DNA of 64,000 nucleotides from Octopus vulgaris (lineage: Eukaryota), in NCBI GenBank assembly GCA_951406725.2, contig OX597826.1, positions 24,118,001-24,182,000 of the forward strand, in the 5' to 3' direction. The notes beneath the pieces are model-generated. The model made no database searches. It was not told the DNA's origin and worked only from the letters and a program-made list of their open reading frames with translations. A program made the translations under genes and the position numbers. Shown here piece by piece: positions 8,077 to 64,000 of this stretch (its first letter is position 1; each line of letters starts with the position of its first letter).

Positions 8077-8654
8077 GACACTTTATTTCATGTTGCTGAA
8101 GGCTGGCGAACCAGATGGCTGCACCAGGCTTCAATCATGATCTGGCAGAGTTTCTACAGCTGGATGCCCTTCCAAATGCCAACCACTCTGAGAGTGTAAT
8201 GGGTGCTTTTATGTGCCACAGGCGGTACTGGCAATGACCTCGCTCGAATCTTTTACAAATGCCACTGGCACAGGTGCCATATATATACACACACACACAC
8301 ATGCATATTCATTCAGTGAGCTTTTTTCAATCTCCATCTACTAAATCCACTTGTAAGGTTTTGGTCAACATGGAGCTGTAGTAGAAAACACTAACCAAGG
8401 TGGTACATGGTGAGACTGAACCTGAAATCATGAGGTTGAGAAGCAAACTTGACTACACAGACACACAGCCATGACTACACCTGTATTCTATAATCCCTTC
8501 CTTTATTTTACTTATCTTCTAGTTTCACTAAGCTGTGGGCCATGTCGGGGCACTGCCATTCTAAATGCTTTAACCCTTTTGTTACCAGTTTCCCTGACAC
8601 TGCCTCTGGTTCTATGATACAAATTCATGTTTTAAAGTTATCTACCATATTTGT

Positions 8655-11286
8655 TTGCTGGCCTATATAGACTCCTTCTATGATGCTTTACAGGCAGTTG
8701 TTGATCGCATACCCGCAAGTGACATTCTAATCGTTGCAGGCGATTGGAATGCCCGCACAGGACCAAGTAACACCACTAATGACCACATACTGGGACGGTT
8801 TGCGATTGGCAACCAATGCGCCAATGGTGAAAGACTTGTCAATTTCACTGCTGCAAATTATCTTACTGTTTCCAGCATGCGCTTTCAACATCCATGGCAT
8901 CATCTTCTTACATGGTACTCCAATGACAGTGTCACAGCAAACCAGATTGGCCATTTTCTCGTTAGAAGCCGCTGGTCGTCGAGCATCCTTGATTGTTGAA
9001 TGTTCAGAGGCGCAAAAACCGGCAGCGAACATGGTTCCAATCATATATTAGGACGGGCAAAACTACGTCTTCATCTCAAGGCCGTCAAGTCTCGCTCTAA
9101 GCCTTTAAGATACGATATCTTGAAGCTAAAAAGTAACCAGACCGAACATTTATTCCGTATTGAATTAACAAATCGGTTTAACGGGCTCGAAGTCCCTCAA
9201 TCTGCTTCCTCAGATGAAGTCTGGCAAATGGTCAAACACAATCTTCAATCCGTGATGTCCACAACACTCGGCACCACTAAGCGAAAAGACAAAGATTGGA
9301 TCTTGGGCCAAACAATCGAAATTGCTGAAAAAGCAAAACAAGCTCGATGCAACCAATCTGATACCTTCAGACAACTGTGCCGTGAAGCTGCCCGGTCTGC
9401 CCATGCTGATCCAAATAAATTCTAGAGGACAGTGGCTGAAGACATGGAATGCGCCACATCTACTGGGGACTCCCGTAAGCTCTACAGCCTCCTTCGATCG
9501 AGCACAAAGACAGGCTGGAGTGGTAATGAAACCATTTTGGACCAGAATGGCGATTCCATCACCAATCTCACTGAGCGCATCATCCGCTGGAGAGACCATT
9601 TCACCAATCTGCTGAACCATGACCACCAGCCCCCCTTATCTGCTCTTGCGCTCGATGCGACCCCAACCTTGTATAACTGCCGAACAGTTCCCCCTACGCT
9701 TGAAGAGGTCCTTGCTGTTATCAGAAAGCTCAAAAATAACAAAGCTGCCGGCAAAGATAACATTCCTGCTGAGATCCTCAAGCATAGTGCAAATATACTG
9801 GGGCCCGCAATTCATCAAGTTATCACCCGGGTTTGGGATACGGAAATCCTCCCCCAAGACTGGAGCAACACAACACTGGTACCTTTCTTTAAGAAAGGCG
9901 ATAAACGCTGCTGCAGCAACTACCGTGGCATCAGTCTGATTGACGTTTCTGCCAAAATATTTGCATCTATTCTTCTGAGACGATTCCAATCAGAACATGA
10001 CTCTAGAACAAGACCAAATCAGTGTAGTTTCCGTCCAAATCGAGACTGCACCGTTCAAATCTTCACCCTGAGACTAATCCTCGAACACCGTTGGTGCTTT
10101 CAGCCAAAAAACAGTCATCTGCTTTGTTGATTTTGCTGCTGCATTCGACTCCGTCGATCGTGACACCCTCTGGAAGGTCATGCAGGCAGATGGTATCCCA
10201 CCTAAACTTCTCAATCTTATCAAAGCTTATTACCGCTCAACAAGATCCTGCGTACGCGTGTATGGTGAAGTGTCGGAATGCTTCGAAATATGGTCTGGCG
10301 TTTGGCAAGGATGTGTTCTTTCGCCAACTCTTTTCAATTACGCCATCGACTGGATCACCACAAATGCATTAAGGGAGTTCCCTGGTATCACTGTTGGTCA
10401 CAACTTTTTCGTCAAGGATCTAGACTACGCAGATGACATTGCGATACTTGGCGAAACATTTGCTGATCTCCAGTTTGCTATCAATGAGCTCTAGCATGTT
10501 GCATCACAGATTGGTATGAAAGTCAATGCCTTGAAGACCAAAATCCTCAGAGCCGGCTTTGCCCCACCAGACAAAACACCCATTGTCCTCAATGGTGATA
10601 TTCTTGAAGAGGTTGAGAGTTTCAAATACCTTGGCGCCATCATTACAGCTACAGGTCAAGGTGAGGCTGACATTAAAACATGAATCGACCTCGCTTGCCT
10701 TCAACCGACTCAGTGCACGATTCTGGTCAAGATCTGAGATCCGACGCACCACCAAAGTATGGATCTACCAAGCACTAGTACGAACAATTCTTCTTTACGG
10801 CAGCGAGTCATGGCCAATGAGGGTGGAAGATATTAAGCGACTAGAATCCTTCGATCACCTCTGTCTACGGCCGCATCCTTCGTGTCCAATGGCATCACTT
10901 TGTCTCCAACAATTCAGTGTGGCACCAGTGCAGAATCACCTCCCTCCGACAAGTCATCCTAACGAGACATCTGCGTTGGCTGGGTCATGCCCTCCGTCGT
11001 CAACCAGAATTCATCTATGAAGCAATTGCCCCAGCTCCCCTTCAGGGTTGACGAAAGCGATGTGGTGGACAACGAAAAACCTGGCTGATGACAGTCAAGG
11101 CTGATCTGGAACCCAACCTAGGCCCCCATATCTACGGCATTTGCCGCTGGAATAAGGAGTGGTTGGAGATCACGTGGTTGTTAGCCTCAAATCGCCAGGC
11201 CTGGTCAGCGTTTGTGAGAGATGCAGCATTGAGGATGAATGAAGCCAGCTCAACCCACCCCGGGTGAATGCTGTCTCAAGCAAGTA
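8655..11286 (+). mobile_element. Decayed RTE-clade LINE (AP-endonuclease + reverse transcriptase pseudogene), 5'-truncated
   Basis: AGDWNARTG, NGERLVNF, LKNNKAAGKDNIPAE, NYRGISL, QGCVLSPTLFN, DLDYADDIA, LLYGSESW. In-frame stops at 8997, 9423, 10492 and 10681 plus frameshifts; short caag/caagta tail. Confidence 0.95.
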
Positions 11287-13647: not shown

Positions 13648-16112
13648 AGGAAAAAGAGAATGTAGAATAGAGTGAGTGAGAGGGCTTCCCAGTTAGTTTG
13701 AATCTTAGTTTCACTGTTCAGTGAAGTTAGGTAGAGCAATTAATGTTGCCACCTTGCTTCTGATTTGAATGCTGGTGAGGCAGAATAGTTAAGGATTTCT
13801 ACCACACAGTCATTGGGAACTTGGGTTCAATCCCACAGCATGGCATCTTGGGTCAATGTCTTTTACTGTAATTTTGGATCATCCCAAGTTTTTTGAATGA
13901 AACTGAATTGTGACTGAAACAGTTTGGAACCCACTTGTATAGATGATACTGGTACCTCTAAATTCAAAGAACTTGCTCTGGTACATACTACCATTCACTA
14001 ATTCATTGGGTTGGGTGTAGCTGTGTGGTTGGGAAATTTGCTTCCTAATTACATGGTTCCAGGTTCAGTCCACTCCACAACATCTTGGGCAAGTGTTTTC
14101 TGTTATAGACCTGAGCCAACCAAAGCCCTGGATTCGGTAGATGGAAACTGAAAGAAGTCTATCATGTGTGTCTGTGTGTGTCTGCCTTTGTGTGTGTGTG
14201 TGTGTGTGTGTATTTGTTTCTCTTTGTCTTGACAAGCATGATAGTTGTGAGTGTCACTGTCATTCAAGCAGTGTCGTTCATTCCGGATACTCTGCAATTA
14301 CCTTGCTTGGAAACAGATGAGGATTCAAGACAAGAATCCTGCTGTATTAAATCTGTCTCAATAAACCTCTTCTAATCCATGCTAGCATGGGAAAGTAGCT
14401 GTTAAGATGACAATTATGATGATAAGTCCATTGATGGAGCTTTGTTGGAACTAAAAGAAAACCATTTATATTATCAGTATAGAAATTGGTTAGAACCTGT
14501 ACACTAAATGTATCTAACCTGTCAATTTAACAAAACATGAGCCAACAACATAGGCTAGAAATAGCAACGAAACCTCTCTCAAATCATTCTCTCTTTGTTT
14601 GTTGTTGCTTTTGTTGTTGTTTGTTTATTTTTGTTTAATAGAAACAGAAGCACTGACCAATATACAGGATCTAAATTATATTGGCTGAAATAAACATGGA
14701 ATGTTCATTGAAGGAATGCCTTTGATGATAGGTTTACTCATTCAGAGCTTGCCTGGGGCTAAATAACAACTTAACTCACTGCTAAGTTAACATGACTTTA
14801 ATTATGAGAAATAGCAAAAAAAAAAAAAAAATCACAACAGAAAACAAAAGTCATTTTCTTGAAAAGTTAAAAAGAAAAAAATTATGATTAATTATATTTC
14901 TTCTTTAAGATGAAAATAAGAATTCTAGGAAGAATTGTGTTAGGTGAGGCTTTGAAAAAAATGTCTGATTACGAGAGGTAGCTGTTACATTTGTGTTGCA
15001 TCAAACTTCTAACCTGTGTAGCAACTCTGTACTTGAAAGAGCTGAGTAAAAATGATTTAGGTATAATAGGCATATTTATTACCTTTAACTAGTTGGATTT
15101 TTCCACCTTTATATCTCTGTCATGCTATGAAATCAGGTAACAATTAAAAATGAATGGATTTATTTAAAAAAAACACATCAAATGCATCTGTGTTGCTCTC
15201 ATATACACGTTAATTCTAAACTGTGCAGTGTTGGCTGAGGTAGTGAAAAGTGAGGCATGTCAGAGTGTTGTTTGATGAAGAAATAAATATCTTAATGTTT
15301 TGTGCAGCAAAGTTCTTCATTGGCGAGTAAATGAAAACTACCACTAATCTCTTTGATTTCAATTCATTATATTTGCATAACAAATAAAATAAAACTAGAA
15401 AAAAAGAAAAAACAGAATTGTTGGGAAAACTTGTGGTGGTATGCTTCAGCACAAATCTGTAAATAAAATTTGCAAATATGAATAAATTTGTATGCTGTGT
15501 TGAAGACATGATTTCTAATGTTTCTAGCAAGGTAATTTCATTGATGAACAAAAGAAAAAAAAATACTGAAATTCAAATATTAGATGTTGGCATAGTTGCA
15601 TGGTTAAGAACTTTGCTTTGCAACCATGTTATTTTAGGTTCAGTCCCACTGTGTGGCACCTTGAGCAAGTGTCTTCTACTATTGTCCCAGACTGACCAAT
15701 GCCTTTTGAGTGAATGTGGTAAACAGAAACTGTGTGGAAGCCTATCATATATATAAAGATGTATGTATTTGTGCATATATTTCTGTTTGTCTCCTCTCCC
15801 CTGCCACTGCTTGACAACCAGAGTTGGTTTGTTTACATCCCTGTAACTTATTCAATCAGTCTCTTTTGCTGAACTGCTAAGTACCAGATTTCAAAAAATA
15901 TATATAGAAATAAATATATATATACATATATATATAATACAAATAAGAAAATGGAGGAACAGATTCATTCCAATCAACGACTTACAGATATTACCAATTC
16001 ATATTATTTATTTATTAACTACATAAATAGGAACATCCAAATCCAACAAAACAAAACAATATACATCAATATGTAAGATAATAATACCATAAGAATAATA
16101 TACATAAAATGG

Positions 16113-16234
16113 ATCTTACAGCTGTTTCAGCCTGTAGATAAAGGTATCTCATTCTGCCTATATTAGTCAGATGTATTGAGGTAATATGCAGTTAAAAATG
16201 AGTTACTTATATATCTCAAGGCCTCGTCAGAGAT
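16113..16234 (-). ncRNA. Type I hammerhead ribozyme motif with 85-nt stem II extension
   Basis: atct CTGACGA ggcct-[85 nt]-aggct GAAA cagctg TA agat. Stem I atct/agat, stem II ggcct/aggct, palindromic stem III ACAGCTGT, GUA site. Confidence 0.7.
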
Positions 16235-16294
16235 TGTAAAGTACAATTATAAAAATGCAAATATAAATATGAAACAAAATACACATACACAAGA

Positions 16295-16325
<31 letters not shown>

Positions 16326-16918
16326 AGTGTATATTCATATATATATATACATATATATAAGTCTATATATAATAATATACATACACATAAGGTTACAGAT
16401 AATCAAATATACTGGAGTATACATATACATCTACATCAATGGGTACATATATAAAGTTCATTACATTACAAAAACTATTAATATTATTATTATTATTATT
16501 AATAATACCAATATTAGATTATGTGCATTCTGCTATCCACAATGCATAGTAGATGGAAAATACCACATAAAATATAGTATAATATAATATAGTACAATAT
16601 AATATAATAAATTATATATCACATATATAATATAGTATAACATAATATATAGACAGGTGCTTATGAAATATGAATAGCAGAATGCACATAATCTAATATT
16701 GGTATTATTAATAATAATAATAATATTAATAGTTTTGGTAATGTAATGAACTCCGTATATGTACCCATTGATGTGGATGTATATGTATACTCCAGTATAT
16801 TTGATTATATGTAACCTTATGTGTATGTATATTATTATATATATACTTATATATATGTATATATATATATGTATTTTGTTTCATATTTATATTTGCATTT
16901 TTATAATTGTACTTTACA

Positions 16919-17040
16919 ATCTCTGACGAGGCCTTGAGATATATAAGTAACTCATTTTTAACTGCATATTACCTCAATACATCTGACTAATATAGGCAGA
17001 ATGAGATACCTTTATCTACAGGCTGAAACAGCTGTAATAT
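16919..17040 (+). ncRNA. Inverted partner hammerhead motif (stem I weakened, agat>atat)
   Basis: atct CTGACGA ggcct...aggct GAAA cagctg TA atat. Confidence 0.6.
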
Positions 17041-17388
17041 TCATTTTATGTATATTATTCTTATGGTATTATTATCTTACATATTGATGTATATTGTTTT
17101 GTTTTGTTGGATTTGGATGTTCCTATTTATGTAGTTAAATAAATAATATGAATTGGTAATATCTGTAAGTCGTTGATTGGAATGAATCTGTTCCTCCATT
17201 TTCTTATTTGTATTATGAATTTGAGGTAAAATGTTTTACCTTTGCCCATCTAATACAATAAATGAATTAATTGCATTGCAATTATAAGCATTTATGTATT
17301 TGCCATTTGGGTGCTTCACCAGCAGTATTTTGGATAACTGATATCCTATAGTGGGTTACACTCATAACCCCTATCTCACTTTGTACTT

Positions 17389-17442
<54 letters not shown>

Positions 17443-37806: not shown

Positions 37807-38045
37807 ATATCAAATTAGAGACAAAACCACTATTATGCAAATCAAACAAAGAAAGACTTAAGCCAATACATAAAATAATTTATATAAATTATTTTATGTA
37901 TTAACTTAAGTCTTTCTTTGTTTGATTTGCATAATAGTGGTTTTGTCTCTAATTTGATATAATATATTTTACTATAAAATTGGATTCAATCTTAAATCTG
38001 ATTTTTCCTTGTAAATTTGGATTTATTCCCTAATATTTATTATTA
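37807..38045. repeat. Loopless 154-bp palindrome (37807-37960) plus tail, between (TA)n runs
   Basis: 77-bp arms centred on 37883/37884 with 2 mismatches seen. Confidence 0.85.
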
Positions 38046-38072: not shown

Positions 38073-39309
38073 CAGGGGTTGGACAAAATAATGGAAATAC
38101 CTTAAAATTTCAAACAAATTTATTGTAATATGGAGTAGGACTGCTTTTGGCAGTAATTACAGCTTGAATTCTATGAATTATGGACTTGTACAAAGTTTGA
38201 ATTGTCTCCAAAGAAATTTTTGACCATTCTTCAGCTAAAACAGTCTCTAGTTCTTGTAGTGATGATCATGGAGGATATTGACTCCTTACTGGTTTTTCAA
38301 AAATGCACCATAAATGTTCAATAATATTGAGATATGGGGACTGTGGTGGCCAGATAAGATGTTCAACTTCATTAGAATGTTCCTCGTGCCATTCAGTAAC
38401 AACTTTAGCTGTGTGAATTGGTGCATTATCATCCTGAAAGATTGTTTCTTTCTGGAAACAGTTCCACAATCATAGGATGAATTTGATCAGATAAAATGCT
38501 TAAATAGTCTTGACTATTAATTCTGCCATGAAGGGAAACCATTGGGCTGGCAGATTTCCAAGATATATCCCCCCACCCAGATCATCACAGATCCTCCATG
38601 TTTAACAATTGGAAGAAGGCAGTCTGGGTCAAATGCTTCTTTTTAGCTGTCTCTGGACGTATACTCGGCCGGTGGTCAGAAATAAGTCAACGGATGACTC
38701 ATCCAAGAAAATATTCTTCCACTGCTCTAGAGACCAATTCTGTAGGTTTTTACTCTACTTTGAATACTTTGCAATGTTTGTTTTTGAAAGTAGTGGTTTT
38801 CTGACTGCAGCTCTCCTGTGAAATCTGGCTTTGTGCAGCTCCTGGCGAACAGTTTTTGTGGAAACTGGGTTCTTGAGGTGGTCATTAAACTCTGCAGTAA
38901 TTTTGTGATCCTTTCTCACAATTTGCGTAAGAGCCTGATGGTTCTTATCTGAAAGTTTTTGTTTTCTTCTGAAGTTTTGTTTCGATGAGGAGGTTTTTCC
39001 CTCTTTCTTAAAGGCTGTCATTACTTTCGAGGCAGTACTTCTTGATACATCAAACATTTCAGCTGTTTTCATTACACTAGTGCCTGCCATATGAGCACCA
39101 ACAATTTGACCTCTTTGAAAGTTCGATAGATCTGTCATTTTAATAAATTTTAATTACCTTTTATCTGAAAAGAAACAGCAATTTTAGCAAAACATATTAA
39201 GCAACACTAATAGCAAATCAAAAACCATAAAAATAAACAAGCTTTTGGCGGTTTTATAGATATTTCAAAATTATGATGCTAGGTGTTTCCATTATTTGTC
39301 CAACCCCTG
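38073..39309 (-). mobile_element. Full-length decayed Tc1-family DNA transposon
   Basis: ~30-bp TIRs caggggttggacaaaataatggaaatacct with TA on both sides. ORF pieces MTDLSNFQRGQIVGA...RKPLLS and FQDDNAPIHTAK...WPPQSPYLNIIEHLW. Confidence 0.95.
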
Positions 39310-44508: not shown

Positions 44509-45420
44509 TGCTCAGATGGTGCTCTTAATGCTTGATATATATATATATATATATATGAAGCATTAAGAGCACCACCTGAGCGTGGTCGTTGCCAGAGCGG
44601 CTATCTGGCCTCCGTGCCGGTAGCACGTATATATATATATATATATATATTTATGGGTCTAGTTTGTGTGGTTTCAAAAATTAAAATTTATCGGAAATTT
44701 TAAAATCTGGCTGAATAATATATTTTTTCCAAGCAGAATTGCTGGAAATATTTCACTTCTTCCAGAAAAATGTTTTTAAAAAGTTATAGCGGTTTAAAGT
44801 CTGATCATTTTCACCAAGGAAACAGGATTTGGAAGCTGTCATTTTATGTGTCATTGCACATTTTGTCACAAACACCCACAAAATAGCATGTGTTGTCAAG
44901 AAAAAGTAAACAACGCATATTTTTGTTTAAAGCATTGCGGGCGATGCAGTACCTTGCCCCACTTGGTTCCAGGTTCCAGGTGTGACACCTTGGGCAAGTG
45001 TACTTATACCTCAGGTCAACCAAAGCCTTGTGAGTGGATTTGGTAGATGGAAACTGAAAGAAGCCTATATATGTGTGTGCTTGTGTGTATGTTTGCATGC
45101 CTATGTTTGTCCCCCCACCATTGCTTCACAACTGATGTTGGTGTGTTTACGTCCCCGTAACTTAGCAGTTCAGCAAAAAAGATACTGATAGAATAAGTAC
45201 TAGGCTTATAAAGAATAAGCCCTGGGATCGATTTGATTGACTAAAGGCGGTGCTCCAGCATGTTGCAGTCAAATGAGTGAAACACATAAAAGAATATATA
45301 TATATAAAATATACACGAATATATATATTATATACACGATATATAGTATATACACGAAAGAGAAAGAAATGGGCTTCTTTCAATTTCCGTTTATCAAAAT
45401 ATATATATATATATATATAT

Positions 45421-45695: not shown

Positions 45696-45857
45696 ATGAA
45701 AATAGTAATGCAATACGAGAGTATTGCTTTCCAGTAAAGGATAGCCCGTAAGGGTAAAATTATACATATAAAAGTAAATAAATGGCACAACGAAGCACCG
45801 ATATTTTCAGTAAATATCAGTGTTTCGTTGTGCCATTTATTTACTTTTATATGTATA
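45695..45857. repeat. Short fold-back (45761-45806 / 45812-45857) with tail on the left
   Basis: 46-bp inverted arms between (TA)n runs. Confidence 0.75.
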
Positions 45858-46296: not shown

Positions 46297-48124
46297 TGTA
46301 GAAAATGGGAAACAGAGGTGGAATGGACCACTGATGATATTTTGGGTGGTGAGGGCAGGATGTTTGTTGTGTTTCTCTTATAGAATCTTCTAAGAATTGT
46401 ATTCATTCATTCTCCCCTCTTCTATTATGTCTTTTCAAGCACACACACACACTAATCACATTACTACACATTTTGGGGAAAGAGCAATAATTGAAATGAA
46501 ATAGATGGGAAGGAAGGGTCTCTGGGTGACAGAGAGAGTGTGTGTGTGAGTTTCTGATGCTTGCCATATCCTCTCACTGCCTACTCTGCCTGAAGCAACT
46601 TTTCCTCCTCCTCTCCTCCCATCTTCCCACCCCAACTACTACTACCACCACCACTGCCGCTACTGCTGTTTAAGTACCAATGACAGAACCTGTTAGAAAT
46701 AGCTGCCAGTCCTCCCTCAAACCATATCCCCTTGTTTCAGAATAAAGCACAATGTATTGGACAATGAGTTGGTCTCAGATCAATATTCAAAATAAAACAG
46801 AATGGTCATGGCTGGAACACTTCTGATCACAGTTTGGATCAGTCAAGACTGACCTCAAGCTAATTTCCTCCTCCTCCTCCTATCACTACTACTATACCCA
46901 CCTTCTGTGTCATTTCCTTTGTCCAGCATAGTCCTGTCATTCACCTCCTACCACCTATAAACTTCTCCCATCCATCTTCTGCATCCTCCTGTTTTTCTAT
47001 TTGCCTTTGTCCAGTGTCCCTTTCTATTAACATAATCTACCACCATCACCAGCCTTTTCTTTGTCCTCTGACTCCTACCAGTGAAAGCTTTTCCTCCTCC
47101 TTCAACCTCATCTACCTTGTTCCAGTGGCTCAACACTGATGATTAAGACTTTGATTGGTCAAATCCAGTGGTTCTCAAGTGGGGGTTCACATAAGATTTT
47201 GTTGTTAAAATCTATGTGCAACAAACTGGTTACACTTCTCTAGTACACAAAATATTTTAACAATTTTTTTCTATACAATTTCTAGTAATATTTAATCATA
47301 AAGATTATTCTTTTCTACTCTAGGCACAAGGCCTGAATTTTTTTTTTTTTTTTTTTTGGTGGGGAGGGCAATCAATTAGATCGACCCCGAAAGGTTGAAA
47401 GGCAAAGTCAACCTCAGTGGAATTTGAACTCAGAATGTAAAGACAGACGAAATACTGCTAAGCATTTCACCCGGTGTGCTAACGTTTCTGCCAGCTCACC
47501 ACTTTAAAAATACAATAAGGTTATTGAAACAACAAATGGCTACAAGGATTCCCCCTGAGTAAAATAGGTACCAAAGGGGTCCAGAGGTAAAAAAAAAAAA
47601 AGGTTAAGAAACACTGTGCTAGACATAGCAGCCAAATATACCTCAGATTACTCTGTCAATGGTAATGTTTATTTATTCTCATTCTTTTGAATTAATCATG
47701 CATTATCTTGTAACTTTGAAATTTAAATGATGTTATTGTTTGTTTTTAGAAAGACAGTGTAAGTTAGGTGTGAGAGGCTAGATCTGGCTGGTTTGAGCAT
47801 AAAACACACAATATTTTGGCTGGACATGGATGGTTTAAATGCTAACAGGTCAAATAAGATGCACCAAAATCAGGAATGAAATAGCATGAAATTTTGAAGA
47901 TAAGCATGGCTGTGTGGTGAGAAGTTTTCTTTCCCAACCACGTGGTTCTGAGTTCAGTCCCACTGTGTGTCACCTTGCACAAGTGTCTTCTACTATAGCC
48001 TCAGGTCAGTTAAAACCTTGTATATGTATTTGGTAGATAGAAACTGAAAGAAACCCCTTGCGAGTGTGCGTCTTTGTGTCTGTATTTGTCCCCCAGTACC
48101 AACAGCAACTGAAAGAAGCCTGTC

Positions 48125-48163
<39 letters not shown>

Positions 48164-48166
<3 letters not shown>

Positions 48167-48505
48167 ATTATAATTTAGGGTATCTAAGAGATACCACCAT
48201 GCTGGAAATAGCAGCCAAAACTTGACTAAACCACATTAAATGTTCATAGAGTACCAGGAGAGAAGACAAAAGGACAAAATAAACTAGCAAAAGAATAGTT
48301 TATTTTGCCTCTTTGTCTTCTCTCTTGGTGCTGTATGAATATTTAATGTGGTTTTAGAGTCAAGTTTTGGCTATTTCCAGCATGGTGTTATCTCTTAGAT
48401 ACCTTAAATTATAATTTTAATAATTATTAGCCTGTGAAGGTTTATATTCCCATGCTGGCCAGCTGATAAGATCGGTATTTAAATGCCGATCTTATCCTTA
48501 TTTAT
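48164..48505. repeat. Fold-back insert (arms 48164-48286 / 48296-48418) with tail containing a 32-bp hairpin
   Basis: ~120-bp imperfect inverted arms; gataagatcggtattt/aaatgccgatcttatc at 48465-48496. Confidence 0.8.
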
Positions 48506-50263: not shown

Positions 50264-52992
50264 ATTAATAATCCTTTCTACTATAGACAGAAGGTGTGAA
50301 ATTTTGTGGGAGGGTCTAGTTGATTACATCAATCCCACTGTTTCACTGGTACTTAATTTATCGACCCCTAATTGATGAAAAGCAAAGTCGACCTCGACGG
50401 AATTAGAACTCAAAATATAACAAACACCTGATGGCTGGTATATTTTTAATAAATTTTGAAAATGAATTGAAACAAGGCAAAGGTGAGTGTATGCCAACAG
50501 AAATATTATAACTAAAGGTTTAAATCACTGCAACTACTATCACTGATACCACCACCACTACTACTATGACTAGAGCACCACCATCTACTTCTACTACTAC
50601 TACTACTACTACAACCACCACTACCACTACTATTACTGCTACTACAACTACTGCTGCTACTTTCTACCCACCCCTATTTTACAATGAATCTCTGTTAGTT
50701 TCAGTTATGGGTATTCAACTGTTTGATAACCTTAATTACAAAGCTTATTCAGCTGAAGTGTGGCTGAGTATTCCACAAACATGTGTGTCCCCACTCCCTT
50801 AATGTTATTTTCAGGCTGACTCAGTGTGACAGTTTACAAAGGCTGGACCTTTGAAATTGTTGTCAAACAGTGGTGGGGGACAAACACATACATGGACACA
50901 TACATAGATATATACGTGCATATATGACAGGCTTCTTTCAGTTTCCATCTACCAAATCCACTGACAAGGCTTTGGTCGACCCGAGACTATACTAGAAGAC
51001 ACTAGCCCATGGTGCCATGCTGTGGGACTCTTACCGCATAGCTATGCCTCTGTGTGTGTGTGTGTGTGGTGCCTCTTCATATGTTGTTTTAATGTGGCAC
51101 TGTTTGACAAGCAGAGTTATTGACTTATGTCCTCATGACTTAGCAGTCTGATACAAACTGATAAAATAAATAGCAGACTTCAAAGAAAAGGTTCTTATTT
51201 CTTTATTGCCCACAAGGGGGACAAAGAAGGACAGACAAAGGGATTTAGTCGATTATATCGACCCCTGTGCATAACTGGTACTTAATTTATCAATCCCGAA
51301 AGGATGAAAGGCAAAGTTGACCTCGGCGGAATTTGAACTCAGAACGTAACAGCAGACAAAATACCTATTTCTTTACTACCCACAAGGGGCTAAACATAGA
51401 GTGGACAAACAAGGACAGACAAAGGGATTAAGTTGATTACATTGACACCAGTGCTAACTGGTATTTAATTTATCGACCCCGAAAGGATGAAAGGCAGAGT
51501 CAACCTCGGCGGAATTTGAACTCATAACGTAATGGCAGACGAAATACCGCTAAGCATTTCGCCTGGTGTGCCAATGTTTCTGTCAGCTCGCCTTCAAAGA
51601 AAAGCTTCTGGGGTCATTTTGATTGACTAAACCTTACGCAGTTTAGGCCACAGCACGGCCACAGTTCCAAGCTAACATACAGAGCAATGAAAGCATCAAC
51701 TGAAATATGACTACTAAAAAAACAAACAAACAGCATAATGCAAACATCAATATGAAAAGAAGAAAAATAAACAACTAAAAAAAAACACTATGAAATATGA
51801 ATGTATATTATCTTACTCATTTCTGCATCATCATCATTGCTTTGTTTGTTTTTCTATGCTTGTATTGGTTGAGTGAATTTGTTGCATTGCTGTGTTAAAA
51901 ACTACCGCCTTTATTGTTGTATATTCTTTTGTTCTTTGAGTCAGCTGACTGCAGCCATGCTTGATGGGTTTTAGTCAAACAAACCGACCCTGGGACTTGC
52001 TTTTTCCTTTTTAAGCCTAGTACTTATTTTATTGGACTCTTTTTCTGAACTGCTAAGTTATGGGGAAGTGAACACCAACGTTAGTTGTCAAGTGGTGTTG
52101 GTGGGTAAAAGTGCCGACACAAAGACACACACACATAAGTATATATACGTATATACATACATACATGGCAGGCTTCTTTCAGTTTCTGTCTACCGAATCC
52201 ACTCACAAGACTTTGGTTAGCCTGAGGCTATAGTAGAAGTTACTTGCCCAAGGTGTCACACAGTGGGACTGAAACTGAAATCTTGTGGTTGGGAAGTCAG
52301 CTTCTTACCACACAACCACACCTTTCATTTTTTTCTTTACATTTTCACCTGGATGCGTTCCTAAATGGCCAGTCTCTTTACAGCATAGCCTGGGTCCATT
52401 CTCAGGTAAAATCCTTTGTATCAGTGGTTCCCAACCATCTTTTAATCCATCAACCCTATTGATTCCTGTTTTTCTTGGGAAGGTGCGGTGGGGTGGGGGC
52501 TCATACCCATTCAATTCTTTTTACTCGTTTACTTGTTTCAGTCATTTGACTGCGGCCATGCTGGAGCACTGCCTTAAAGAATTTTTTAGTCAAAGAAATT
52601 GACCCCAGGACTTATATTTTGTAAGCTTAATACTTATTGTATCAATCGCTTTTGCCAAACCGCTGAATTATGGGGACAAAAACACACCAACATTGGCTGT
52701 GAAGTGATGGCAGTGTTGGGGAGGCAAACACATACACTGCCAGATCTGACTGGGCCTGACGAAGCCTTCCAGCTTCACAGACCCCAGTTGAACCGTCCAA
52801 CCCATGCTAGCATGGAAAGTGGACGCTAAATGATGATGATGATGATGATGATGATATATAAGTTCAGCAGAATTTAGATTCAAATGAATATGGTACTTAA
52901 GTTAGATACACCAGAATTTTGTATGGTATTATCCATATAAATCTATGGGGTGATTATAATCAAAATAAGCAACAAGAATAACTTCGGTAATT

Positions 52993-53076
52993 TGGTACAA
53001 TCGTTTCACGCTACATCATTTTATTAAATATTGTAAGTATTACAACAGTTTTAAAATGTTGAGCAATCATCAGCCA
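52993..53076 (-). ncRNA. Hammerhead motif with extended stem II (element ~52860-53128, same family as 61.3 kb)
   Basis: tgg CTGATGA ttgct-[49 nt]-agcgt GAAA cgattg TA cca; the downstream tail aligns with 61875-61960. Confidence 0.6.
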
Positions 53077-53538
53077 TTTATAGAGATTTTCTATTAATAC
53101 ATAATTTTCATATTAATTGATAACATTATATATATATATATCCTTCTCCTCCCCTTCCTTCTTCTCCTCTCCTTCTTTCTCCTCTCCCTCCTCCTCCTCC
53201 CCCTCCCCCTCTCCCCTCCTCTCTTTTATCTCCCCCTCTCTCCCCCACACCACACTACACTACACCATACGACATTACACATCACATCATACATACATAC
53301 ACACGTCCAAACCACCAGCCCTCTTCCACATGCACATACATACTCTCTTATGCACACACGCACCTTCAGGTTGGAGTGAGGTCACTTGACCCTGTTATCT
53401 CCCCTACTATCCCTCTAGCGTCTAACGTCTGACCTCTAACGTTTGACCTCCGATCTCTGACTTCTGAAATCAGAACGCCATGTTGGATCGTTAGCCCCTA
53501 CACGCAATTTTTTTCTCTCCTTGTTTCTTTTCTGTGTA

Positions 53539-53576
53539 TCTTTCTGTCGAAGAGCGTAGGCTCGAAACGTAAAAGA
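53539..53576 (+). ncRNA. Minimal hammerhead-like motif with variant core
   Basis: tcttt CTGTCGA a gagc-gtag-gctc GAAA cg TA aaaga. Stem I tcttt/aaaga, stem II gagc/gctc, palindromic ACGT stem III. Confidence 0.55.
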
Positions 53577-53701
53577 CTTGTTTTATTTCTATTCCTGAGC
53601 GCCATACTAATACATTATTTGTTTGTACTCCACCTGCCTTCGTCTTTTGTTTATTTTCGTAAACCTGCCTTCGTCTTTTGTTTGTTTTCGTAAACCTTCC
53701 G

Positions 53702-53739
<38 letters not shown>

Positions 53740-54211
53740 GACAGGCTTCTTTCAGTTTTTATTTATCAAATCCACTCACTTGGTTGGTCCAAGGCAACAG
53801 TAGAAGATATTTGCCCAAGATGCTACTTATATTTTTATGATGAAATATTATTAGGAATTGTATAAAAATTTGTTGCAATATTTTGTGTATTGTACAAGTA
53901 TAATCCGTTTATTGCACGTAAATTTTAACAAAATCTTAAATGGGCCCCTAAGGGCCATATGAACCATGGTTGAGGACCACTGTTTTATATTCTGTATCAG
54001 TTTCTCTTCGGAGTAGACATTGGGTGTGTCACTGAGAAACTTGCTTCTCCACCATTTAGTTTCAAGTTCAGTCCTACTGTGCAACACTTTGGGGCAAGTG
54101 TCTCTTAACTATAGCTCTGGGCTGACCAAAGCCTAGTAAGTGAATTTGGCAGAAGGAGACCGTGTGATAGTCTGATGTGTGTGTGTATATATATATATAT
54201 ATGTGTGTGTG

Positions 54212-54681
54212 TTTAAATAGAGGTTGAAATAACTACCTTAAGGGATAGAAAGTATCCAATGAATTACTGGTTTGTTACCTATTATTTTGTTGTGAATAAT
54301 AATGTCCTATAGTAATAGATTTAAGTATAAAACTTTGTTCATAAATATTCAAATTAAAATCTAGAATAAGGAGAAGGAGTGTTAGTATAATTTATTAACT
54401 GCAAAAATTCAACATGTTCCTTTACATCTGTTTCAATATTGCCTTAATGAATTAAATTCCAGTAATTAAATCTTTTTTGGGGGGGGTGGGGGAATCTTGT
54501 TATTGGGGTAAAAGTAAAAAAGATATATTGTTAGGTTATTAACATGTAATTTTTCCAAACATCTCAAAAAACTCCTCTGAATAGATTTCCCCCGCAAAAT
54601 GTTTTAATTACTGGAATTTAATTAATTTGGGCAATATTGAAACAACTGTAAGGGAACATGTTGAATTTGTTCAGTTAATAA
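54212..54681. repeat. Older fold-back (arms ~54392-54497 / ~54583-54681) with decayed hammerhead remnant
   Basis: Imperfect inverted arms; GAAAC-aact-GTA and GAAAC-agat-GTA halves present, CUGANGA half degenerate. Confidence 0.55.
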
Positions 54682-55485
54682 GGCGCAGTCTGATCTGGCA
54701 GTGTTTCTACAGCTGGATGCCCTTCCTAATGCCAACCACTCCGTGAGTGTAGTGGGTGCTTTTTACGTGCCACCTGCATAGGTGCCAGATGAGGCTGGCA
54801 AACAGCCACGATCGGATGGTGCTTTTTACATGCCACCGGCATGGGGGCCAGGGACACACGCACGCACACACACACATATATATCTGAGGGGGCACTGAAA
54901 AGTTCCTGGTTTTTTTCCTAGACATGTTGCTTTCATTATACTGAGAAAACATGCTTAGCTTCCAAAGGAGGTTTGTAGTAGCAAACTAAGGCAACTGGAG
55001 CTTCCAACGGAGGCTTGTAGTGACAATCTAAGGTAACTGAAGATAAATATTATCATTGAAGAGCTTTAATTACTAAGGAAGCTCATGATGAAATCCAGAA
55101 AGGCTGGACATGAAGCTTATCATCAGTTTTGTAGGTAGGAGGGAGAGAGCTTAGAGTGATGGAATGAGGTAGTATCTATCAAGTAGGTGGAAGAGGAGGG
55201 TGTTTAGCTGGCAAAGGAAATTGTCTGCATTGGATATAAATTATGCTTTCCGTTTGTTACATGAAGAACTTTCGAAAAGGTTTTTACATATATATATGTG
55301 TTTACGTTCCTGCATTTGTACATGAGTCTCTTTCTGTCAGTTTCTATCTATCTGTCTCCTCCAACACTCTCTTTCTCGCTACATATGTGTGTGTATGTGT
55401 ATCTGTGGGTGCATATAAATGTTTATATATATGTGTATACATACACACACTCACACAATTGAAACCTTTCTGTATGTATATATGT

Positions 55486-55564
<79 letters not shown>

Positions 55565-55678
55565 CATGTATGTATACATATGTATATATTTGTGTCTTTT
55601 AAAAACATGTTTATTATGCGTATGTATGTGTGTATATGTATGTATACAGACATTACATATAATTATGGATGCTCACAT

Positions 55679-55715
<37 letters not shown>

Positions 55716-58125
55716 TCTGCTTCGCTTTTGCCATTTTCGACACAAACAGATGATGATGACAACAACAACAACAAAAACAGTAACGGCAACAACAACAGCA
55801 GCAACTACGAGAGCTGATGTAGGATCTAAACAAACTGTGTGGGTTTACTACAATTGATATCAGTGAGAGGAAGGGAGAGGGAAAGGGTGAGAGAGACAGA
55901 GAAATCAATGAGAAAGTTTCATCAAGAATGTGAGATATTGTTATATGTGGTAATTATGGTGGACCAGATATAGAAACATTGATATGTCCGGAAACCAACT
56001 CTGGAATAAACAGCTATAATAATTAAGGATATTTTTAACCATGTCGCCTGCACGTAGGGCTGGTGTACTTTTGTTATTATGTATTTGGAAATGCCTAACT
56101 TGTTATTCTTTCACCGCTTTCAGTTGTCAATCGTTGGGCTTGTGGCCATGCTGGGGCACCACCTGTAATTATATCAAACCAAGTATTTTCTCCGGTATTA
56201 CATTATATTTTACCTTAGCGATCGTTTTGTTTATCTTCTGTCTTTTACTTGTTGCAGTCATTGGACTGCGACCATGCTGGAGCACCTCCTTCAAGAGTTT
56301 AGTCGAACAAATTGACCCCAGTAGTACTTTTTTTTTTAATCTGGTACTTTTTCTATTACCTTTTATGCCTAACAACCATGTTACAGGATGTAAACAAATG
56401 AACACTGGTTGCCAACCATAAACCCAAAACACATACATACTCACATGTATATATCAATATATACATATGTAAAACAAAATATGTATGTACACACACACAC
56501 ACACACACACAGTAGGTTTCCACAAAGTATTTATCTCCCAAATTCACTCACAAGGCATTGGTTAGCCCTGGGTTAGAATCTTCTTTCAAAATTGCTATTT
56601 TGCATTTCACACATTAACTTGTTTAGGTTGAACTATGTAAAATGTTAGAGAAAGAAACCTGGCCCTTTCTTGCAAAGTTTTTTCATGGACCTATAAGATA
56701 CTATTGTGGATCCCCAATTAACTATTTTGTCGTGTGGACCCCAAATTCTTATATGGACACTCAAGAGCCATATGGGACCCTGGTTGAAAACCGCTGATTT
56801 AATCTGTTACTCAGGCTCTCAACTATGACACTCAACAGACATATGCATTACTGTATCACCTATTTTAACCAAACTATTGGATGTTGTTATACCCCGCTGA
56901 TCACAATATACTTCCAATTTTTTCTCGATTGTACCTTTTCTTTCTCATCTTGGCCGCTATTGTCATGCAGGCCTTCCAAGTGGCCATTTCTGATCCCTTT
57001 TATTCATGAATGTTATACAAACCCTGAATAGAAGGACAACCATTGTTAGTTTCAAATCCAAGTGAAAGAATGGATTATTTTCAGGTTGCATGGGTGCCAT
57101 CCATGGTTTAAAGCAATTAAAAAAACAAGGACTAACTGATCTGGTGTCTATCTATCTATCTCTCTATTTACTTGTCTATTATTTATCCATCCATCTAATA
57201 TTACATGATCAACAAGACTATCAGATGTTGTTACACATCACTGATCACAATGTGCTTTGCATCATTTTAGTTTTGAAATGATGCCACTTTGCTGTACTCA
57301 TACACACACATATGCATACATATTAATATTTTGATATGTTATTCTTTTACTAGTTTCAGCTCAAGATCTGTGGCTATGCTAGGGCACCCCTATTATGAGG
57401 CATTTCATTGTAAGATTTTGTGAATCAAGTATCTTGTTTTGGGGGGTTTTTTCTTTCAGTTTTTCAGTGTCATTTTACAGAAGTAAAAAAAAAAACATCA
57501 TAAAACACAAACATCTAACAACTACAAATAACATACAAGAATAGTGGAACCTAGAAACTATGTAGGTGGTGATGGTAGGGGGAAATGAGGTAGCAACCAC
57601 CCACCCGGCATCCATCCTTCCTGTACACACACACACACACACCCATTTGATACTAACTACAATTTAAAAACAGGGAAATTGTGTCAAGTTTGTGTGTGTG
57701 TGTATCTATGTCAAATGATAATAAATAACATTAACCAAATAGGTGCTTTGAACTAGAATGAGCAGGTGTTACCAGTGCCATTGTTCTTTGCCACCTTCTA
57801 TTTCACTTTAATTCATTCAGTGGGTGGGGATGATGATGATGGGTGTTGTTGTGGTCCTTATTATGGTAATGGGCGAGGTTTCATTCATTCATTCATACCT
57901 CTATAAAGAGAATGACTGAAACATTTACCCCACATTTTGGCTTATTTATTTAGGTTTTTAACAACTCAAGACCCATTATAAAATAAATAAGCAAACCAGA
58001 AAAAATAATAATGTTTCGGCGGGGGGGGGGGGGCGGTCAAGGGAGAAGTTATTAATTGTTGCTTGTACATTGTTGTGTTTCAGCAAATTCTATTTTTTCT
58101 TTATAAATGAGGAAAAAAATACAAC

Positions 58126-58640
58126 CGCAGGAGTGGCTGTGTGGTAAGTAGCTTGCTAACCAACCACATGGTTCCGGGTTCAGTCCCACTGCGTGGCATC
58201 TTGGGCAAGTGTCTTCTGCTATAGCCCCGGGCCGACCAATGCCTTGTGAGTGGATTTGGTAGACGGAATCTGAAAGAAGCCTGTCGTATATATGTATATA
58301 TATATATATATATGTGTTTGTTTGTGTGTCTGTGTTTGTTCCCCTAGCATTGCTTGACAACCGATGCTTACCACACAGCCACTCCTGCGCCATTCGTTGT
58401 ATTTTTTTCCTCATTTATAAAGAAAAAATAGAATTTGCTGAAACACAACAATGTACAAGCAACAATTAATAACTTCTCCCCTGACCGCCCCCCCCCCCGC
58501 CGAACTTAGCGGTTCGGCAAAAAAGAGACCGATAGAATAAGTACTGGGCTTACAAAGAATAAGTCCCGGGGTCGAGTTGCTCGATTAAAGGCAGTGCTCC
58601 AGCATGGCCGCAGTCAAATGACTGAAACAAGTAAAAGAGA
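58126..58640 (+). mobile_element. Young SINE family A copy carrying an inverted 138-bp templated insertion
   Basis: CpG-retaining consensus match; 58367-58504 is the reverse complement of 58015-58148. Confidence 0.85.
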
Positions 58641-59025
58641 AAAAGAGAGAAAAAAAGAGAATAATAATAATAAAAGCGAAAATGTAGCAGTCCTTAGGGG
58701 TTTCTGGGTCTGTTCCTTTATCTAATTTTTTTTTTAAACAGTTCTAAATTTGGCCATGTAAAACATTTTACAAGCATTCAAGTGAACAAAATAAATCCAT
58801 TTGTTTATTATTATTATTATTATTATTATTAAAGGCAGCGAGCTTGCAGAATTGTTAACATGCTGGGTGAAATGCTTAGCAGTATTTCATCTGCCACTAT
58901 GTTCAAGTTCAAATTCTGCTTGAGGTTGACTTTGCCTTTCATCCTTTCAGGGTCAATAAATTAAGTACCAGTGAAACACTGGGGTTGATGTAATTTCAAG
59001 CCTTGTGCCTAAAATAGAAAGGCTA

Positions 59026-59068
<43 letters not shown>

Positions 59069-61197
59069 CCTCAACCTTAGCAAAGGTGGAGGTATTGTTT
59101 TCAGTCATATTTGTTTGTTTGTTTGTTTGTTTGTTTGTCCATGGACAAGATATCTCAAGAACCACATGACTAGCATGAACTGATTAGATTTGGGGATTGA
59201 TCCAGTACCAAATTATTTTTGGTTTTTTTCTTTTATTTAATTTCTGAGAATGGTTCGTTTCATTTTTAGTATTCTCATTTGTGAGAGCAGTCGAGTTTAT
59301 TTCAGATATTCTCATTTTAAAAATCATCTCTGGCTAATCATTGAGAGGACATTGGTGTTGCCTTGGTGGAGGTTTGTGCTCACTGAGCACAAACGTCTTA
59401 TTATTAAGTACTATTGAAACACTGGGGTTGATAAAATCAACTAGTTCCCTCCTCAAAAATTTCAGGCCTTGTGCCTATAGTAGAAAGGATTATTATTATT
59501 ATTATTATTATCATTATAAGGCAGTGAGCTGGTAGAACCATTAGCATGCTAGTCAAAATGCTAAGTGGCATTTTGTCCGCCTTAACGTTGTTCAAATGCT
59601 GCCGAAATTGACTTTGCCTTATATCCTTTCTGGGTCAATACAATTAGTCCCAGTTGAGTCCTGTAGTTAGTTGATGTTATCAACTTACCCTTAAAAAACT
59701 GCTGGCCTTGTGCCAAAATTTGAAATTATTAAGGCAGTGAGCTGGCAGGATTGTTAGCACATTGTGCCAAATGCTTAGTGGCATTTCATCTGTCTTTTCG
59801 TTCCGAGTTCAAATTCCGTCAAGGTCGACTTTGTCATTCTTTCTTTTTAGTATCAATAAATTAAGTACCAGTGAAACACTGAGGTTGATGTAATCTCCAA
59901 AATTTCAAGTCTTTTGCATTTAGTAGAAAGGATTATTATTAAATTCTTGTTACTAAACCCTTTCGTCTCAGTTCATTTTCCCATCTGATCATCCGATCCA
60001 CTGTCTAATCATGACGAACTTGCTTCACACTGTCCCACTCCACAACAACCTCTTTCATAGCGTCCTCCTTCCACTTCTATGTCTCAAGTCTTGATTTAAT
60101 GACCAGAAGCACAATCACAACTTGAACCTGCTGACATTACAGATGTATACCCCACCGATTTTGCATCCTCATAACTGTTTGAAACTTGGATATTAAAAAA
60201 TAAAATTTTCAACAAATACGTTTCGGATACTGCATTATTTATTATTATTATTATTAGTAGTAGTAGTAGTAGTAGTAGTGGTAGTGGTAGTAGTGTGGGC
60301 ATGCAGTGTAGCAGCGCATCGCTGCATCCACCATTTGTTGGTGATATCCTATGCCTGGCAGATGACATCTTTGCACCACTCAGGTGACAACCGTCCAACC
60401 CATGGGTCTGTTTTGGGGTCGTTGCTGTTGAGTCGAGGGTTTTAAAAGATCGGAGTGCAAATCTTATCTCAACTTCTTTTAAGTCGCTATTTACGACATA
60501 CAACACTAGAGCAATGTGAAATTAATTATTTTGCCGAAGACACCACCCAGTCAAGAAATCGAACCCACCATCTGGCGATCGTGAGTGTAATACCCTAACC
60601 ACTAGGCCACGCACTTAATGGTTAGGATCATACACTAACATAATCTACAGATGTTGTATCAGAATTTGAAGGGGCAAAAACATTGGGTGAGAGGGGCGGA
60701 TAATTCACCTACCTCGTCAAAACGTATGAGGAAACAAAAGTCAAGCTGAGTGATTTAACCCAACCCAACCCCATTTTTTTTCTTTATTTTAATCACATCA
60801 GATTCTGACATAATCGCAATCGACACCATCTGAAATGTATTTGTATTAAATCTTATTAAAAATTATCCAGTTTTCGGAAAGTTGTGGGGAAACAAACCAT
60901 GGCGTGGGAATTCTGAAACTTTTTTTTATAATAAATTCTGATATGACCCTTACGTACGCCATCTAAAATGTATTTAACGTTTACCGTTTGTTTCAGTCAT
61001 TTGACTGTGGCCATGCTGGGGCACAGCCTTAAAGGGTTTTAGTCGAATGAATCGACCCCAGGACTTACTGTTTTTCAACCTGTTACTTGTTCTATCGGTC
61101 TCTTTTGCTGAACCGCTAAGGTACGGAGACATAAACCCATCAGTACCTGTTGTCAAGCGGTGGTAAACACTGACACAAAGACACACACATAGATATC

Positions 61198-61282
<85 letters not shown>

Positions 61283-61283
<1 letters not shown>

Positions 61284-61988
61284 CAAGAAAAAAGCAACAA
61301 GAATGGATTAGTTTTTCAGTACAATTGTTTCATACGAAGAACAGCTTTATTAAAAGCTGCAAATATTGCAGCAAATACAAGTGTCCCGTACTCATCAGCC
61401 AAAACACATATGAGTTCTCCAAGCATCCTAGGGGGGTGAGGCTACAGTTATGAAGTATCGAAGATAGTTCTATAAAAAGCAAATTTAGATTGTAAGCAGA
61501 CTTCCAAAGTTCTCTAATGATCCACAGTCTTATAACAAGCTTTAAAAAAGCTTGTTAGCTTCACAGAAAAGGTAAATCCATCCATAATGTAGGTGCAATT
61601 ACCGGAGATATGAGGAGATATTTCATACTCACAGACGATGAATCCATCCATGATTAATCCATAATAAGGTGGGTATAATTTCCTGATATATGATAAGATA
61701 CTTGTCACACTTCTGTTCAATTCACAAAACTGCTATGTTAGAATTATAATGGCTGAAGGAATTATGTGGAGCATTGAAAAACCGCCCGCAATATTTGCAG
61801 CTTTTAATAAAGCTGTTCTTCGTATGAAACAATTGTACTGAAAAACTAATCCATTCTTGTTGCTTTTTTCTTGTCACCCCACATTATTTTATGGTTAATA
61901 CCATATAGATTTCTGGTGCATCTAAGTTAAGTACCGCATTCATGTGAATTCAATAGAACTCACTTGAATCTTAATTGCTTTTACTACA
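61283..61988. mobile_element. Fold-back element (arms 61283-61369 / 61788-61874, tail to 61988) with hammerhead
   Basis: 87-bp inverted arms with no mismatch seen; (TA)n flanks. Confidence 0.85.
61313..61404 (-). ncRNA. Type I hammerhead ribozyme motif with 50-nt branched stem II extension
   Basis: ttttgg CTGATGA gtacg-[50 nt]-cgtat GAAA caattg TA ctgaaa. Perfect core, palindromic ACAATTGT stem III, GUA site. Confidence 0.75.
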
Positions 61989-63773: not shown

Positions 63774-64000
63774 CGTTCACCATGCAATGACTAAGGAAAA
63801 TAGTCTAATAACGGGGCATATAAGCCCTCGACAGAAAAAAAGAAGGCTTTTCCATCCGCGTAGGGCGCGAACCCACACCCCTTTGTTAACATGACTAAGT
63901 GTGTTACCTTTACACACGGATGGGAAAGCCTTCTTTTTTCTGTCGAGGGCTTATATGCCCCGTTATTAGACTATTTTCCTTAGTCATTGCAAGGTGAACG
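63774..64000. repeat. Long hairpin element, ~78-bp outer arms (may extend beyond the window)
   Basis: 63774-63851 is the near-perfect reverse complement of 63924-64000. Confidence 0.85.
63852..63923 (-). pseudogene. 72-nt tRNA-like cloverleaf (non-canonical) forming the cap of the hairpin
   Basis: Acceptor ccatccg/cggatgg, D arm gtgt-aaaggta-acac, T arm gtggg-ttcgcgc-cctac; T7 run 10 nt downstream. Confidence 0.5.

What the first reader, a model, noticed from the sequence alone, without database searches (positions are those of the whole stretch)
52860..61988. Two diverged relatives keep hammerhead structure while changing sequence
The 52.9-kb and 61.3-kb elements have alignable tails (caccccat...taatacca...ttctggtg.atctaa.ttaagtacc). 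Both have CTGATGA, GAAAC(a/g)ATTGTA and a ~50-nt loop II with internal hairpins. Their stems differ yet still pair: stem II gtacg:cgtat vs tgct:agcg, stem I tgg:ctg vs tgg:cca. This in-window structure conservation is the best evidence that the extended-stem-II fold was under selection.
Basis: partly seen in the sequence, partly recalled or inferred. Interest (0 to 1): 0.75.

Follow-up and report, generated by a model that had tools for sequence, protein, structure and literature searches.

The report
Long-armed hammerhead ribozymes in animal repeats
Two diverged copies of a repeated DNA element in this animal genome carry a hammerhead self-cutting RNA motif whose second arm is a 60-base hairpin kept by paired base changes; it likely belongs to a Penelope-type jumping gene, is predicted to cut only as a pair, and is too long for the standard search patterns tried here.

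Summary
The motifs are real and homologous. A (52990-53079, -) and B (61314-61404, -) have complete type I hammerhead cores, a 2-bp helix III with a self-complementary tetraloop, and 59-60 nt between the core halves that fold as one rod. The alignable tail is not behind B but behind a third, inverted copy C (61746-61985, +) with a broken core. The locus is a high-copy repeat ending in (TA)n, with inverted arms. [quoted passage not shown] An unrelated family at 16-17 kb has the same design with a 95-nt rod. Rfam finds none of them, and a published PLE descriptor allows at most 24 nt there. Verdict: a new variant of a known kind; cleavage untested; a monomer assay would mislead.

The parts
52990..53079 (-). 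Hammerhead A (type I): stem I 3 bp, CUGAUGA 53073-53067, rod-like stem II 53066-53008 (59 nt, U.U at base), GAAAC from 53007, loop III GAUU, GUA with A17 at 52996
52860..52995 (-). 3' tail of copy A, ending at a short TA run and an (ATG)n repeat
   Evidence: (100 of 144 columns identical to tail of C)
61314..61404 (-). Hammerhead B (type I): stem I 6 bp, CUGAUGA 61398-61392, rod-like stem II 61391-61332 (60 nt, G.U at base), GAAAC from 61331, palindromic helix III segment ACAAUUGU, A17 at 61320
   Evidence: bridged to its upstream flank by contigs of other copies (table 8)
61283..61319 (-). Short tail stub of B, cut off by (TA)n(TG)n microsatellite
61405..61745 (-). Repeat body upstream of B; repeated in other copies; no coding signal; holds a diverged two-unit tandem repeat (61552-61693)
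61746..61787 (+). Degenerate 5' half of a hammerhead (TGGCTGAAGGA at 61750; core broken by extra letters), facing away from B; also seen in at least one other copy
   Evidence: chance of TGGCTGA within 21 places 0.0006; loose end at 61745; whole-half alignment to A or B not significant
61788..61985 (+). Inverted copy C: 87 nt identical to 61283-61369 (3' half of the hammerhead, A17 at 61837), then the full tail, ending in (TA)n
16109..16238 (-). Hammerhead D1 of a sequence-unrelated family, same design: 95-nt rod, G.U at base, palindromic ACAGCUGU helix III segment
16917..17046 (+). Hammerhead D2, mirror copy of D1 in a 1.28-kb inverted repeat (15934-17216), stem I damaged

Best explanation
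A and B are diverged copies of a type I hammerhead motif with an unusually long rod-shaped stem II, lying near the 3' end of a high-copy repeat that is likely a Penelope-like retroelement or its non-coding derivative, and they are predicted to self-cleave after GUA only when two copies pair through their palindromic helix III. Shown: cores, stems, homology, pair-preserving changes, high copy, inverted arms, (TA)n ends. Inferred: in tandem or multimeric transcripts of the active parent element two motifs swap helix III (8-bp intermolecular helix) and cut out unit-length RNA for reverse transcription; purifying selection on that RNA in the active lineages kept the rod while the sequence drifted; the single genomic copies here are most likely passive, truncated insertions. 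The job of the rod is not shown; the likeliest is to nucleate stem II, whose base pair next to the core is weak (G.U or U.U), or to serve as a binding site for the element's protein.
For: Complete cores and three helices in fixed register; 3 hits versus mean 0.007 in 150 resamplings. 16 of 17 pairs kept in both copies, 4 two-sided changes; slid controls pair 24-61% of cells versus 97%; neutral P 6e-5 to 0.011 for 15 pairs. Helix III segments self-pair over all 8 nt (-5.8, -6.4, -11.1 kcal/mol) whereas the monomeric 2-bp helix costs 0.4-1.2 kcal/mol. Published PLE hammerheads have short palindromic helix III, longer helix II, U-rich 5' and AU-rich 3' flanks, occur as opposite-strand pairs 100-700 bp apart and act as weak dimers (PMC4209133); G.U at the base of helix II occurs in Lottia motifs, U.U in an axolotl motif (PMC7229834). 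PLE insertions show inverted 5'-truncated copies, a one-sided tail and microsatellite targets (PMC8557442); B/C and D1/D2 both show this. High copy: 1028 and 1099 contigs of two runs lay on the 703 bases, all 30 bins covered, summed depth highest over the 5' half of B; of the 40 best-supported variant places shown (127 in all) none lies in 61320-61404 and 33 lie in 61405-61745; a common 1-nt deletion at 61317 keeps stem I paired; another copy also ends in (TA)n at 61982.
Against: No reverse transcriptase or GIY-YIG remnant next to any copy: Pfam on six frames, phmmer of one frame against 1.84 billion proteins gave 2 unrelated hits, a 72-aa open stretch had no homologue, and variant letters show no synonymous bias in any frame (7-10 of 33). 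Only one independent comparison; helices chosen after folding; one search's own shuffle control is reached by 33 of 500. Middle part of the rod aligns only with gaps (57% identity). The hammerhead fold is not the predicted minimum for A, B or D1 (2.1, 4.2, 5.6 kcal/mol above), and B has a competing hairpin over CUGAUGA. The canonical G10.1-C11.1 pair is absent. A common variant at 61314 breaks the sixth stem I pair. Copy C carries a broken core that seems to have been copied in that state. 87 variant rows were not shown. No cleavage or expression data.
Confidence: 0.62

Rival explanations
1. A true hammerhead, but in a non-autonomous repeat of another kind (dispersed retrozyme-like or SINE-like element) that no longer shares an end with any autonomous PLE; the rod is part of a small structured or circular RNA.
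For: No coding remnant; 2-bp helix III with tetraloop is also the form in animal retrozymes (PMC7229834); solo retrozyme copies exist and are argued to derive from PLEs (bioRxiv 10.64898/2026.07.22.740005).
Against: No head-to-tail tandem units here; arms are inverted with a one-sided tail, the PLE signature; no sign of canonical short loops I/II.
Confidence: 0.2
2. The hammerhead core is real and inherited, but the long rod is not under RNA-level selection: it is an AT-rich insertion whose hairpin is kept symmetrical by DNA-level palindrome correction or gene conversion, and the motif may be inactive.
For: The locus is prone to inverted-repeat homogenisation (87 nt identical arms; 1.28-kb palindrome at 16-17 kb). 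The two apical two-sided changes lie in a near-perfect 17-nt palindrome. Competing folds. In one PLE, cleavage was not needed for insertion in vitro (PMC11167929).
Against: Two two-sided changes lie at the base of the rod, about 50 nt apart, in register with the core; G.U pairs and bulges are kept, as in RNA helices; an unrelated family has an independent 95-nt rod in the same place.
Confidence: 0.16
3. Chance arrangement of CTGATGA and GAAAC in an ordinary repeat.
For: Rfam gives no hammerhead match; the same letter pattern occurs in 27 metagenome loci mostly without stems.
Against: Descriptor null, pair conservation, a second family of the same design.
Confidence: 0.02

Closest known systems
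Type I hammerheads in the pseudo-LTRs of metazoan Penelope-like elements (Cervera and de la Pena 2014, PMC4209133)
   Same: Type I topology, CUGANGA and GAAA cores, very short helix III with palindromic loop (dimer type), short helix I, U-rich and AU-rich flanks, opposite-strand pairs a few hundred bp apart, many diverged solo copies, G.U at the base of helix II in some mollusc motifs.
   Different: 59-95 nt between the core halves, against at most 24 nt in that paper's descriptor and 7-8 bp helices in its text; no extra nucleotide after A9; no PLE ORF found next to these copies.
Animal non-LTR retrozymes (PMC7229834; bioRxiv 10.64898/2026.07.22.740005)
   Same: Non-coding, AT-rich, type I hammerhead with 2-bp helix III and tetraloop; a U.U at the base of helix II occurs in axolotl HHR_Amex2.
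   Different: No tandem 150-450 bp units; inverted rather than direct arrangement; long rod instead of a short loop II.
Naiad PLE 'HHR_half_core' cases (Craig et al. 2021, PMC8557442)
   Same: Core halves 35-50 nt apart that fail the standard descriptors; (TA)n insertion preference; inverted copies.
   Different: No fold was assigned there; the Octopus Naiad 3' ends read in the supplement do not resemble this family by eye and have GAAAC upstream of CTGATGA; four short motifs of this family were absent from that supplement.

Membership tests
Type I hammerhead ribozyme | Core CUGANGA, GAAA and NUH in order | tested here: met
   A, B, D1, D2; not met in copy C
Type I hammerhead ribozyme | Helices I, II, III can form in register with the core | tested here: met
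   helix III only 2 bp as a monomer
Type I hammerhead ribozyme | Canonical G10.1-C11.1 pair | tested here: not met
   G.U in B and D, U.U in A; both have natural precedents
Type I hammerhead ribozyme | Match to an Rfam hammerhead model | tested here: not met
   none among 150 of 179 rows shown nor in 3 local scans at E up to 10; expected with a 60-95 nt stem II
Type I hammerhead ribozyme | Mg-dependent self-cleavage after NUH | not testable with these tools
   needs an in vitro assay; only contigs were available
PLE-associated hammerhead | Short helix III with palindromic loop allowing dimers | tested here: met
   8-nt segments self-pair in A, B, D
PLE-associated hammerhead | Helix II plus loop at most 24 nt (published descriptor) | tested here: not met
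   59, 60, 95 nt
Penelope-like element | ORF with PLE-type RT and GIY-YIG endonuclease | tested here: inconclusive
   none in the 340 nt upstream of B, but the copies are too short to include it and no whole genome was held
Penelope-like element | Inverted 5'-truncated copy and one-sided tail | tested here: met
   B/C and D1/D2; the one-sided extensions (about 110 and 200 nt) are longer than the 30-40 bp in PMC8557442
Penelope-like element | Dispersed high-copy repeat with microsatellite insertion bias | tested here: met
   the window is microsatellite-rich throughout, so the bias is weak evidence
Animal non-LTR retrozyme | Head-to-tail tandem units each with a hammerhead | tested here: not met
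Animal non-LTR retrozyme | Abundant small circular RNA | not testable with these tools
   no run on record as RNA, contigs only

The most novel reading that the evidence does not exclude
A hidden class of dimer-type hammerheads with a 60-95 nt rod in stem II, used by at least two unrelated high-copy retroelement families in one genome and invisible to Rfam and to published PLE descriptors; the rod is a selected functional domain (protein-binding or folding switch), so ribozyme counts in such genomes are far too low and some PLE families scored as lacking a hammerhead in fact carry one.
Probability: 0.35. Interest if true: 0.6.

Novelty: new variant of a known kind. Interest (0 to 1): 0.4.

Why it matters
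Hammerheads in Penelope-like elements are well known, so the ribozyme itself is no surprise. If confirmed, genome-wide ribozyme surveys of such animals undercount, the 'half-core' PLEs deserve a second look, and the many diverged copies give a natural covariation set for asking what PLE hammerheads do, which is still open.

Tried and rejected
No whole genome held, so no family-wide alignment. Rfam: no hammerhead row. More family copies in the window: only A, B, C by blastn and nhmmer. Relatives elsewhere: 27 metagenome pattern matches and 59 prokaryote-genome matches are not homologues (0 blastn hits on the 27; 0 nhmmer hits on all 86); viral contigs 0 and 0. A fancied likeness of one + frame of 61380-61760 to a GIY-YIG C-terminus (recalled motif) was not supported. 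Naiad of Octopus as parent: rejected by eye and by motif search. Family motifs absent from the supplements of two cephalopod repeat papers, which hold no sequence library. Expression: no RNA holder on record; contigs from two runs guessed to be RNA cover the motif and bridge the cleavage site, which tells nothing on transcription or cleavage. Whether the 87-nt identical arm is a true insertion-time inversion, gene conversion or an assembly collapse was not resolved: none of the 32 pieces shown (of 2346) spans 61787/61788, and one 415-nt contig leaves the stretch at 61787. Earlier scan notes held nothing on this genome or sequence; one search listed 8 of 358 notes from other genomes. Paper searches for long or extended stem II in type I or PLE hammerheads, for U11.1/G10.1 and for octopus hammerheads found no description; Lunse et al. 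(PMC5785218) is not held and the Terminon paper of 2017 was not seen, and either may describe such variants.

Full report
Setting. The window is AT-rich (GC 0.28-0.46), full of microsatellites, with a decayed LINE-type RT and a Tc1 transposase piece. It is animal-like DNA; the abundant short repeats resemble octopus repeats from my recall only, which I did not test. No whole genome is held.

What is in the sequence. A descriptor scan of both strands found three complete type I hammerhead arrangements: A (core 53073, A17 52996), B (61398, 61320) and D1 (16230, 16117), all on the - strand with a 4-nt loop III. In 150 Markov resamplings of the window the same descriptor gives a mean of 0.45 hits (maximum 3), and 0.007 (maximum 1) when the self-complementary tetraloop, which all three real hits have, is required. 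A and B are homologous (57 of 89 aligned columns identical). The long tail follows A and a third copy C on the + strand (61838-61985; 100 of 144 columns identical), not B, which ends in a microsatellite at 61283. C shares 87 identical nt with B in inverted orientation but has its own 5' half with a broken core, CTGAAGGA. The first stem II pair is G.U in B and U.U in A.

Is structure conserved beyond chance? On the two-row alignment, 16 of 17 gap-free pairs form in both copies; stem I varies on one side only (2 of 3 pairs); the base of stem II has 2 two-sided changes, 1 one-sided, 1 unpaired; a 7-bp apical hairpin that both copies fold on their own has 2 two-sided and 1 one-sided change; sliding the partners drops pairing from 97% to 24-61%, while the column shuffle is reached by 33 of 500. 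The signal is therefore real but rests on one comparison and on helices chosen after folding, and the middle of the rod aligns only with gaps. The inserts fold better than shuffles (z -3.8, -3.3, and -4.2 for D1); with dinucleotide shuffles of the whole motifs z is -1.2 (A), -2.2 (B), -2.5 (D1).

The repeat. Four public runs (coded ids, contigs only) were laid on 61283-61985 at 80% likeness (4 of the 24 runs listed). 1028 and 1099 contigs of the two DNA-guessed runs lay on 703 bases, all 30 bins were covered, and summed depth ran from about 1e3 (61763-61786) to 7e5 (61379-61402) in X1, against 3-50 for most long single contigs listed. This shows a many-copy family, not a copy number. Contigs bridge B to its upstream flank (for example 61315-61462, 61370-61634), so B is the family's regular motif and not a junction accident. 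Among the 40 best-supported variant places shown (of 127), none falls in 61320-61404 and 33 fall in the 341 nt upstream. A frequent 1-nt deletion at 61317 keeps stem I paired; a frequent change at 61314 breaks its sixth pair. Loose ends show another copy with C's broken core, a B-like copy with A's loop III letter, and a copy ending in (TA)n at 61982. The upstream body shows no coding signal. How C's 87 identical nt arose (inversion at insertion, conversion, or assembly) is open.

A second family. D1 lies in a 1.28-kb inverted repeat (15934-17216, 85% identity between arms) with a mirror copy D2 whose stem I is damaged; the right arm runs on about 200 nt to a (TA)n tract. D is not alignable to A or B (z 1.4-1.5), yet has the same design: G.U at the base of stem II, a 95-nt rod, a palindromic helix III segment.

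How it most likely works. The monomeric helix III has 2 bp and is predicted to be unfavourable by 0.4-1.2 kcal/mol, whereas the 8-nt segments pair fully between two molecules (-5.8 to -11.1 kcal/mol). The hammerhead fold is 2.1-5.6 kcal/mol above the predicted minimum, and B can bury CUGAUGA in another hairpin. This is the pattern of PLE hammerheads: short palindromic helix III, dimer action, weak cleavage in vitro, many diverged solo copies and opposite-strand pairs 100-700 bp apart (PMC4209133, parts 1-2 of 4 of the text; review passages PMC6765202). Inverted 5'-truncated copies, a one-sided tail and microsatellite targets are PLE hallmarks (PMC8557442, passages and section 15). I infer that the motif processed multimeric transcripts of an active PLE-type parent and that A, B, C, D are passive truncated insertions. 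That step is not shown: no RT or endonuclease remnant was found, and in one PLE cleavage was dispensable for insertion in vitro (PMC11167929, passages).

Comparison with what is known. The consensus and descriptor in the supplement of PMC4209133 (passages of file 2; file 1 not searched) match in flanks, cores and palindromic loop, and list Lottia motifs with G.U at the base of helix II; the descriptor caps helix II at 7 bp and loop 2 at 10 nt, 24 nt in all. U.U at that place is reported for a weakly cleaving axolotl motif (PMC7229834, passages). Craig et al. noted eight Naiad cases with core halves 35-50 nt apart without assigning a fold; the Octopus Naiad sequences in their supplement (part 24 of 59) are not this family. 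Rfam has no hammerhead match. Retrozyme membership fails on tandem structure (bioRxiv 10.64898/2026.07.22.740005, part 1 of 5). An Octopus repeat paper gives PLEs 6.8% of that genome and does not mention ribozymes (PMC13282606, passages and supplement). Eight searches of the paper library showed no account of 60-95 nt stem II rods in animal type I hammerheads, but two key papers were not seen (PMC5785218 not held; the 2017 Terminon paper, which is said to use relaxed loop lengths), nor any figure, nor bioRxiv supplements.

Verdict. Observation partly confirmed; interpretation partly supported. It works like a PLE hammerhead (likely); it is not shown to be a PLE member; the long conserved rod is a new variant as far as these searches reach. 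Interest 0.4.

Noticed in passing
window 15934-17400: 1.28-kb inverted repeat with a hammerhead of a second family in each arm (95-nt stem II rod), one-sided 200-nt extension and (TA)n end; cleaner than the two copies in the finding.
   Followed up: partly
window 61552-61693: Diverged two-unit tandem repeat (about 70 nt) inside the repeat body upstream of hammerhead B (46 of 81 columns, z 4.5).
   Followed up: partly
window 61392-61398 and 53067-53073 (-): The ATG inside CTGATGA opens only short frames of about 20 codons through the rod in A and B (read by eye); in the anole PLE the ORF starts at stem II.
   Followed up: no
window 8598-11020 (+) and 7698-8087 (-): Decayed LINE-type reverse transcriptase remnants (weak RVT_1 match for 9426-10127).
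   Followed up: partly
window 38755-39153 (-): Tc1/mariner transposase N-terminal fragment.
   Followed up: partly
window 37814-37953, 44510-44581, 45765-45853, 48107-48430, 54392-54681, 63774-64000: Several near-perfect short foldback elements (long inverted repeats, often with a TA centre) that give sub-threshold microRNA matches.
   Followed up: no
L001:680-760 and 12 similar loci: A recurring stretch in metagenome contigs carries both hammerhead core words at the same spacing with only a 3-bp stem II and no stem I; probably coding sequence, not pursued.
   Followed up: partly
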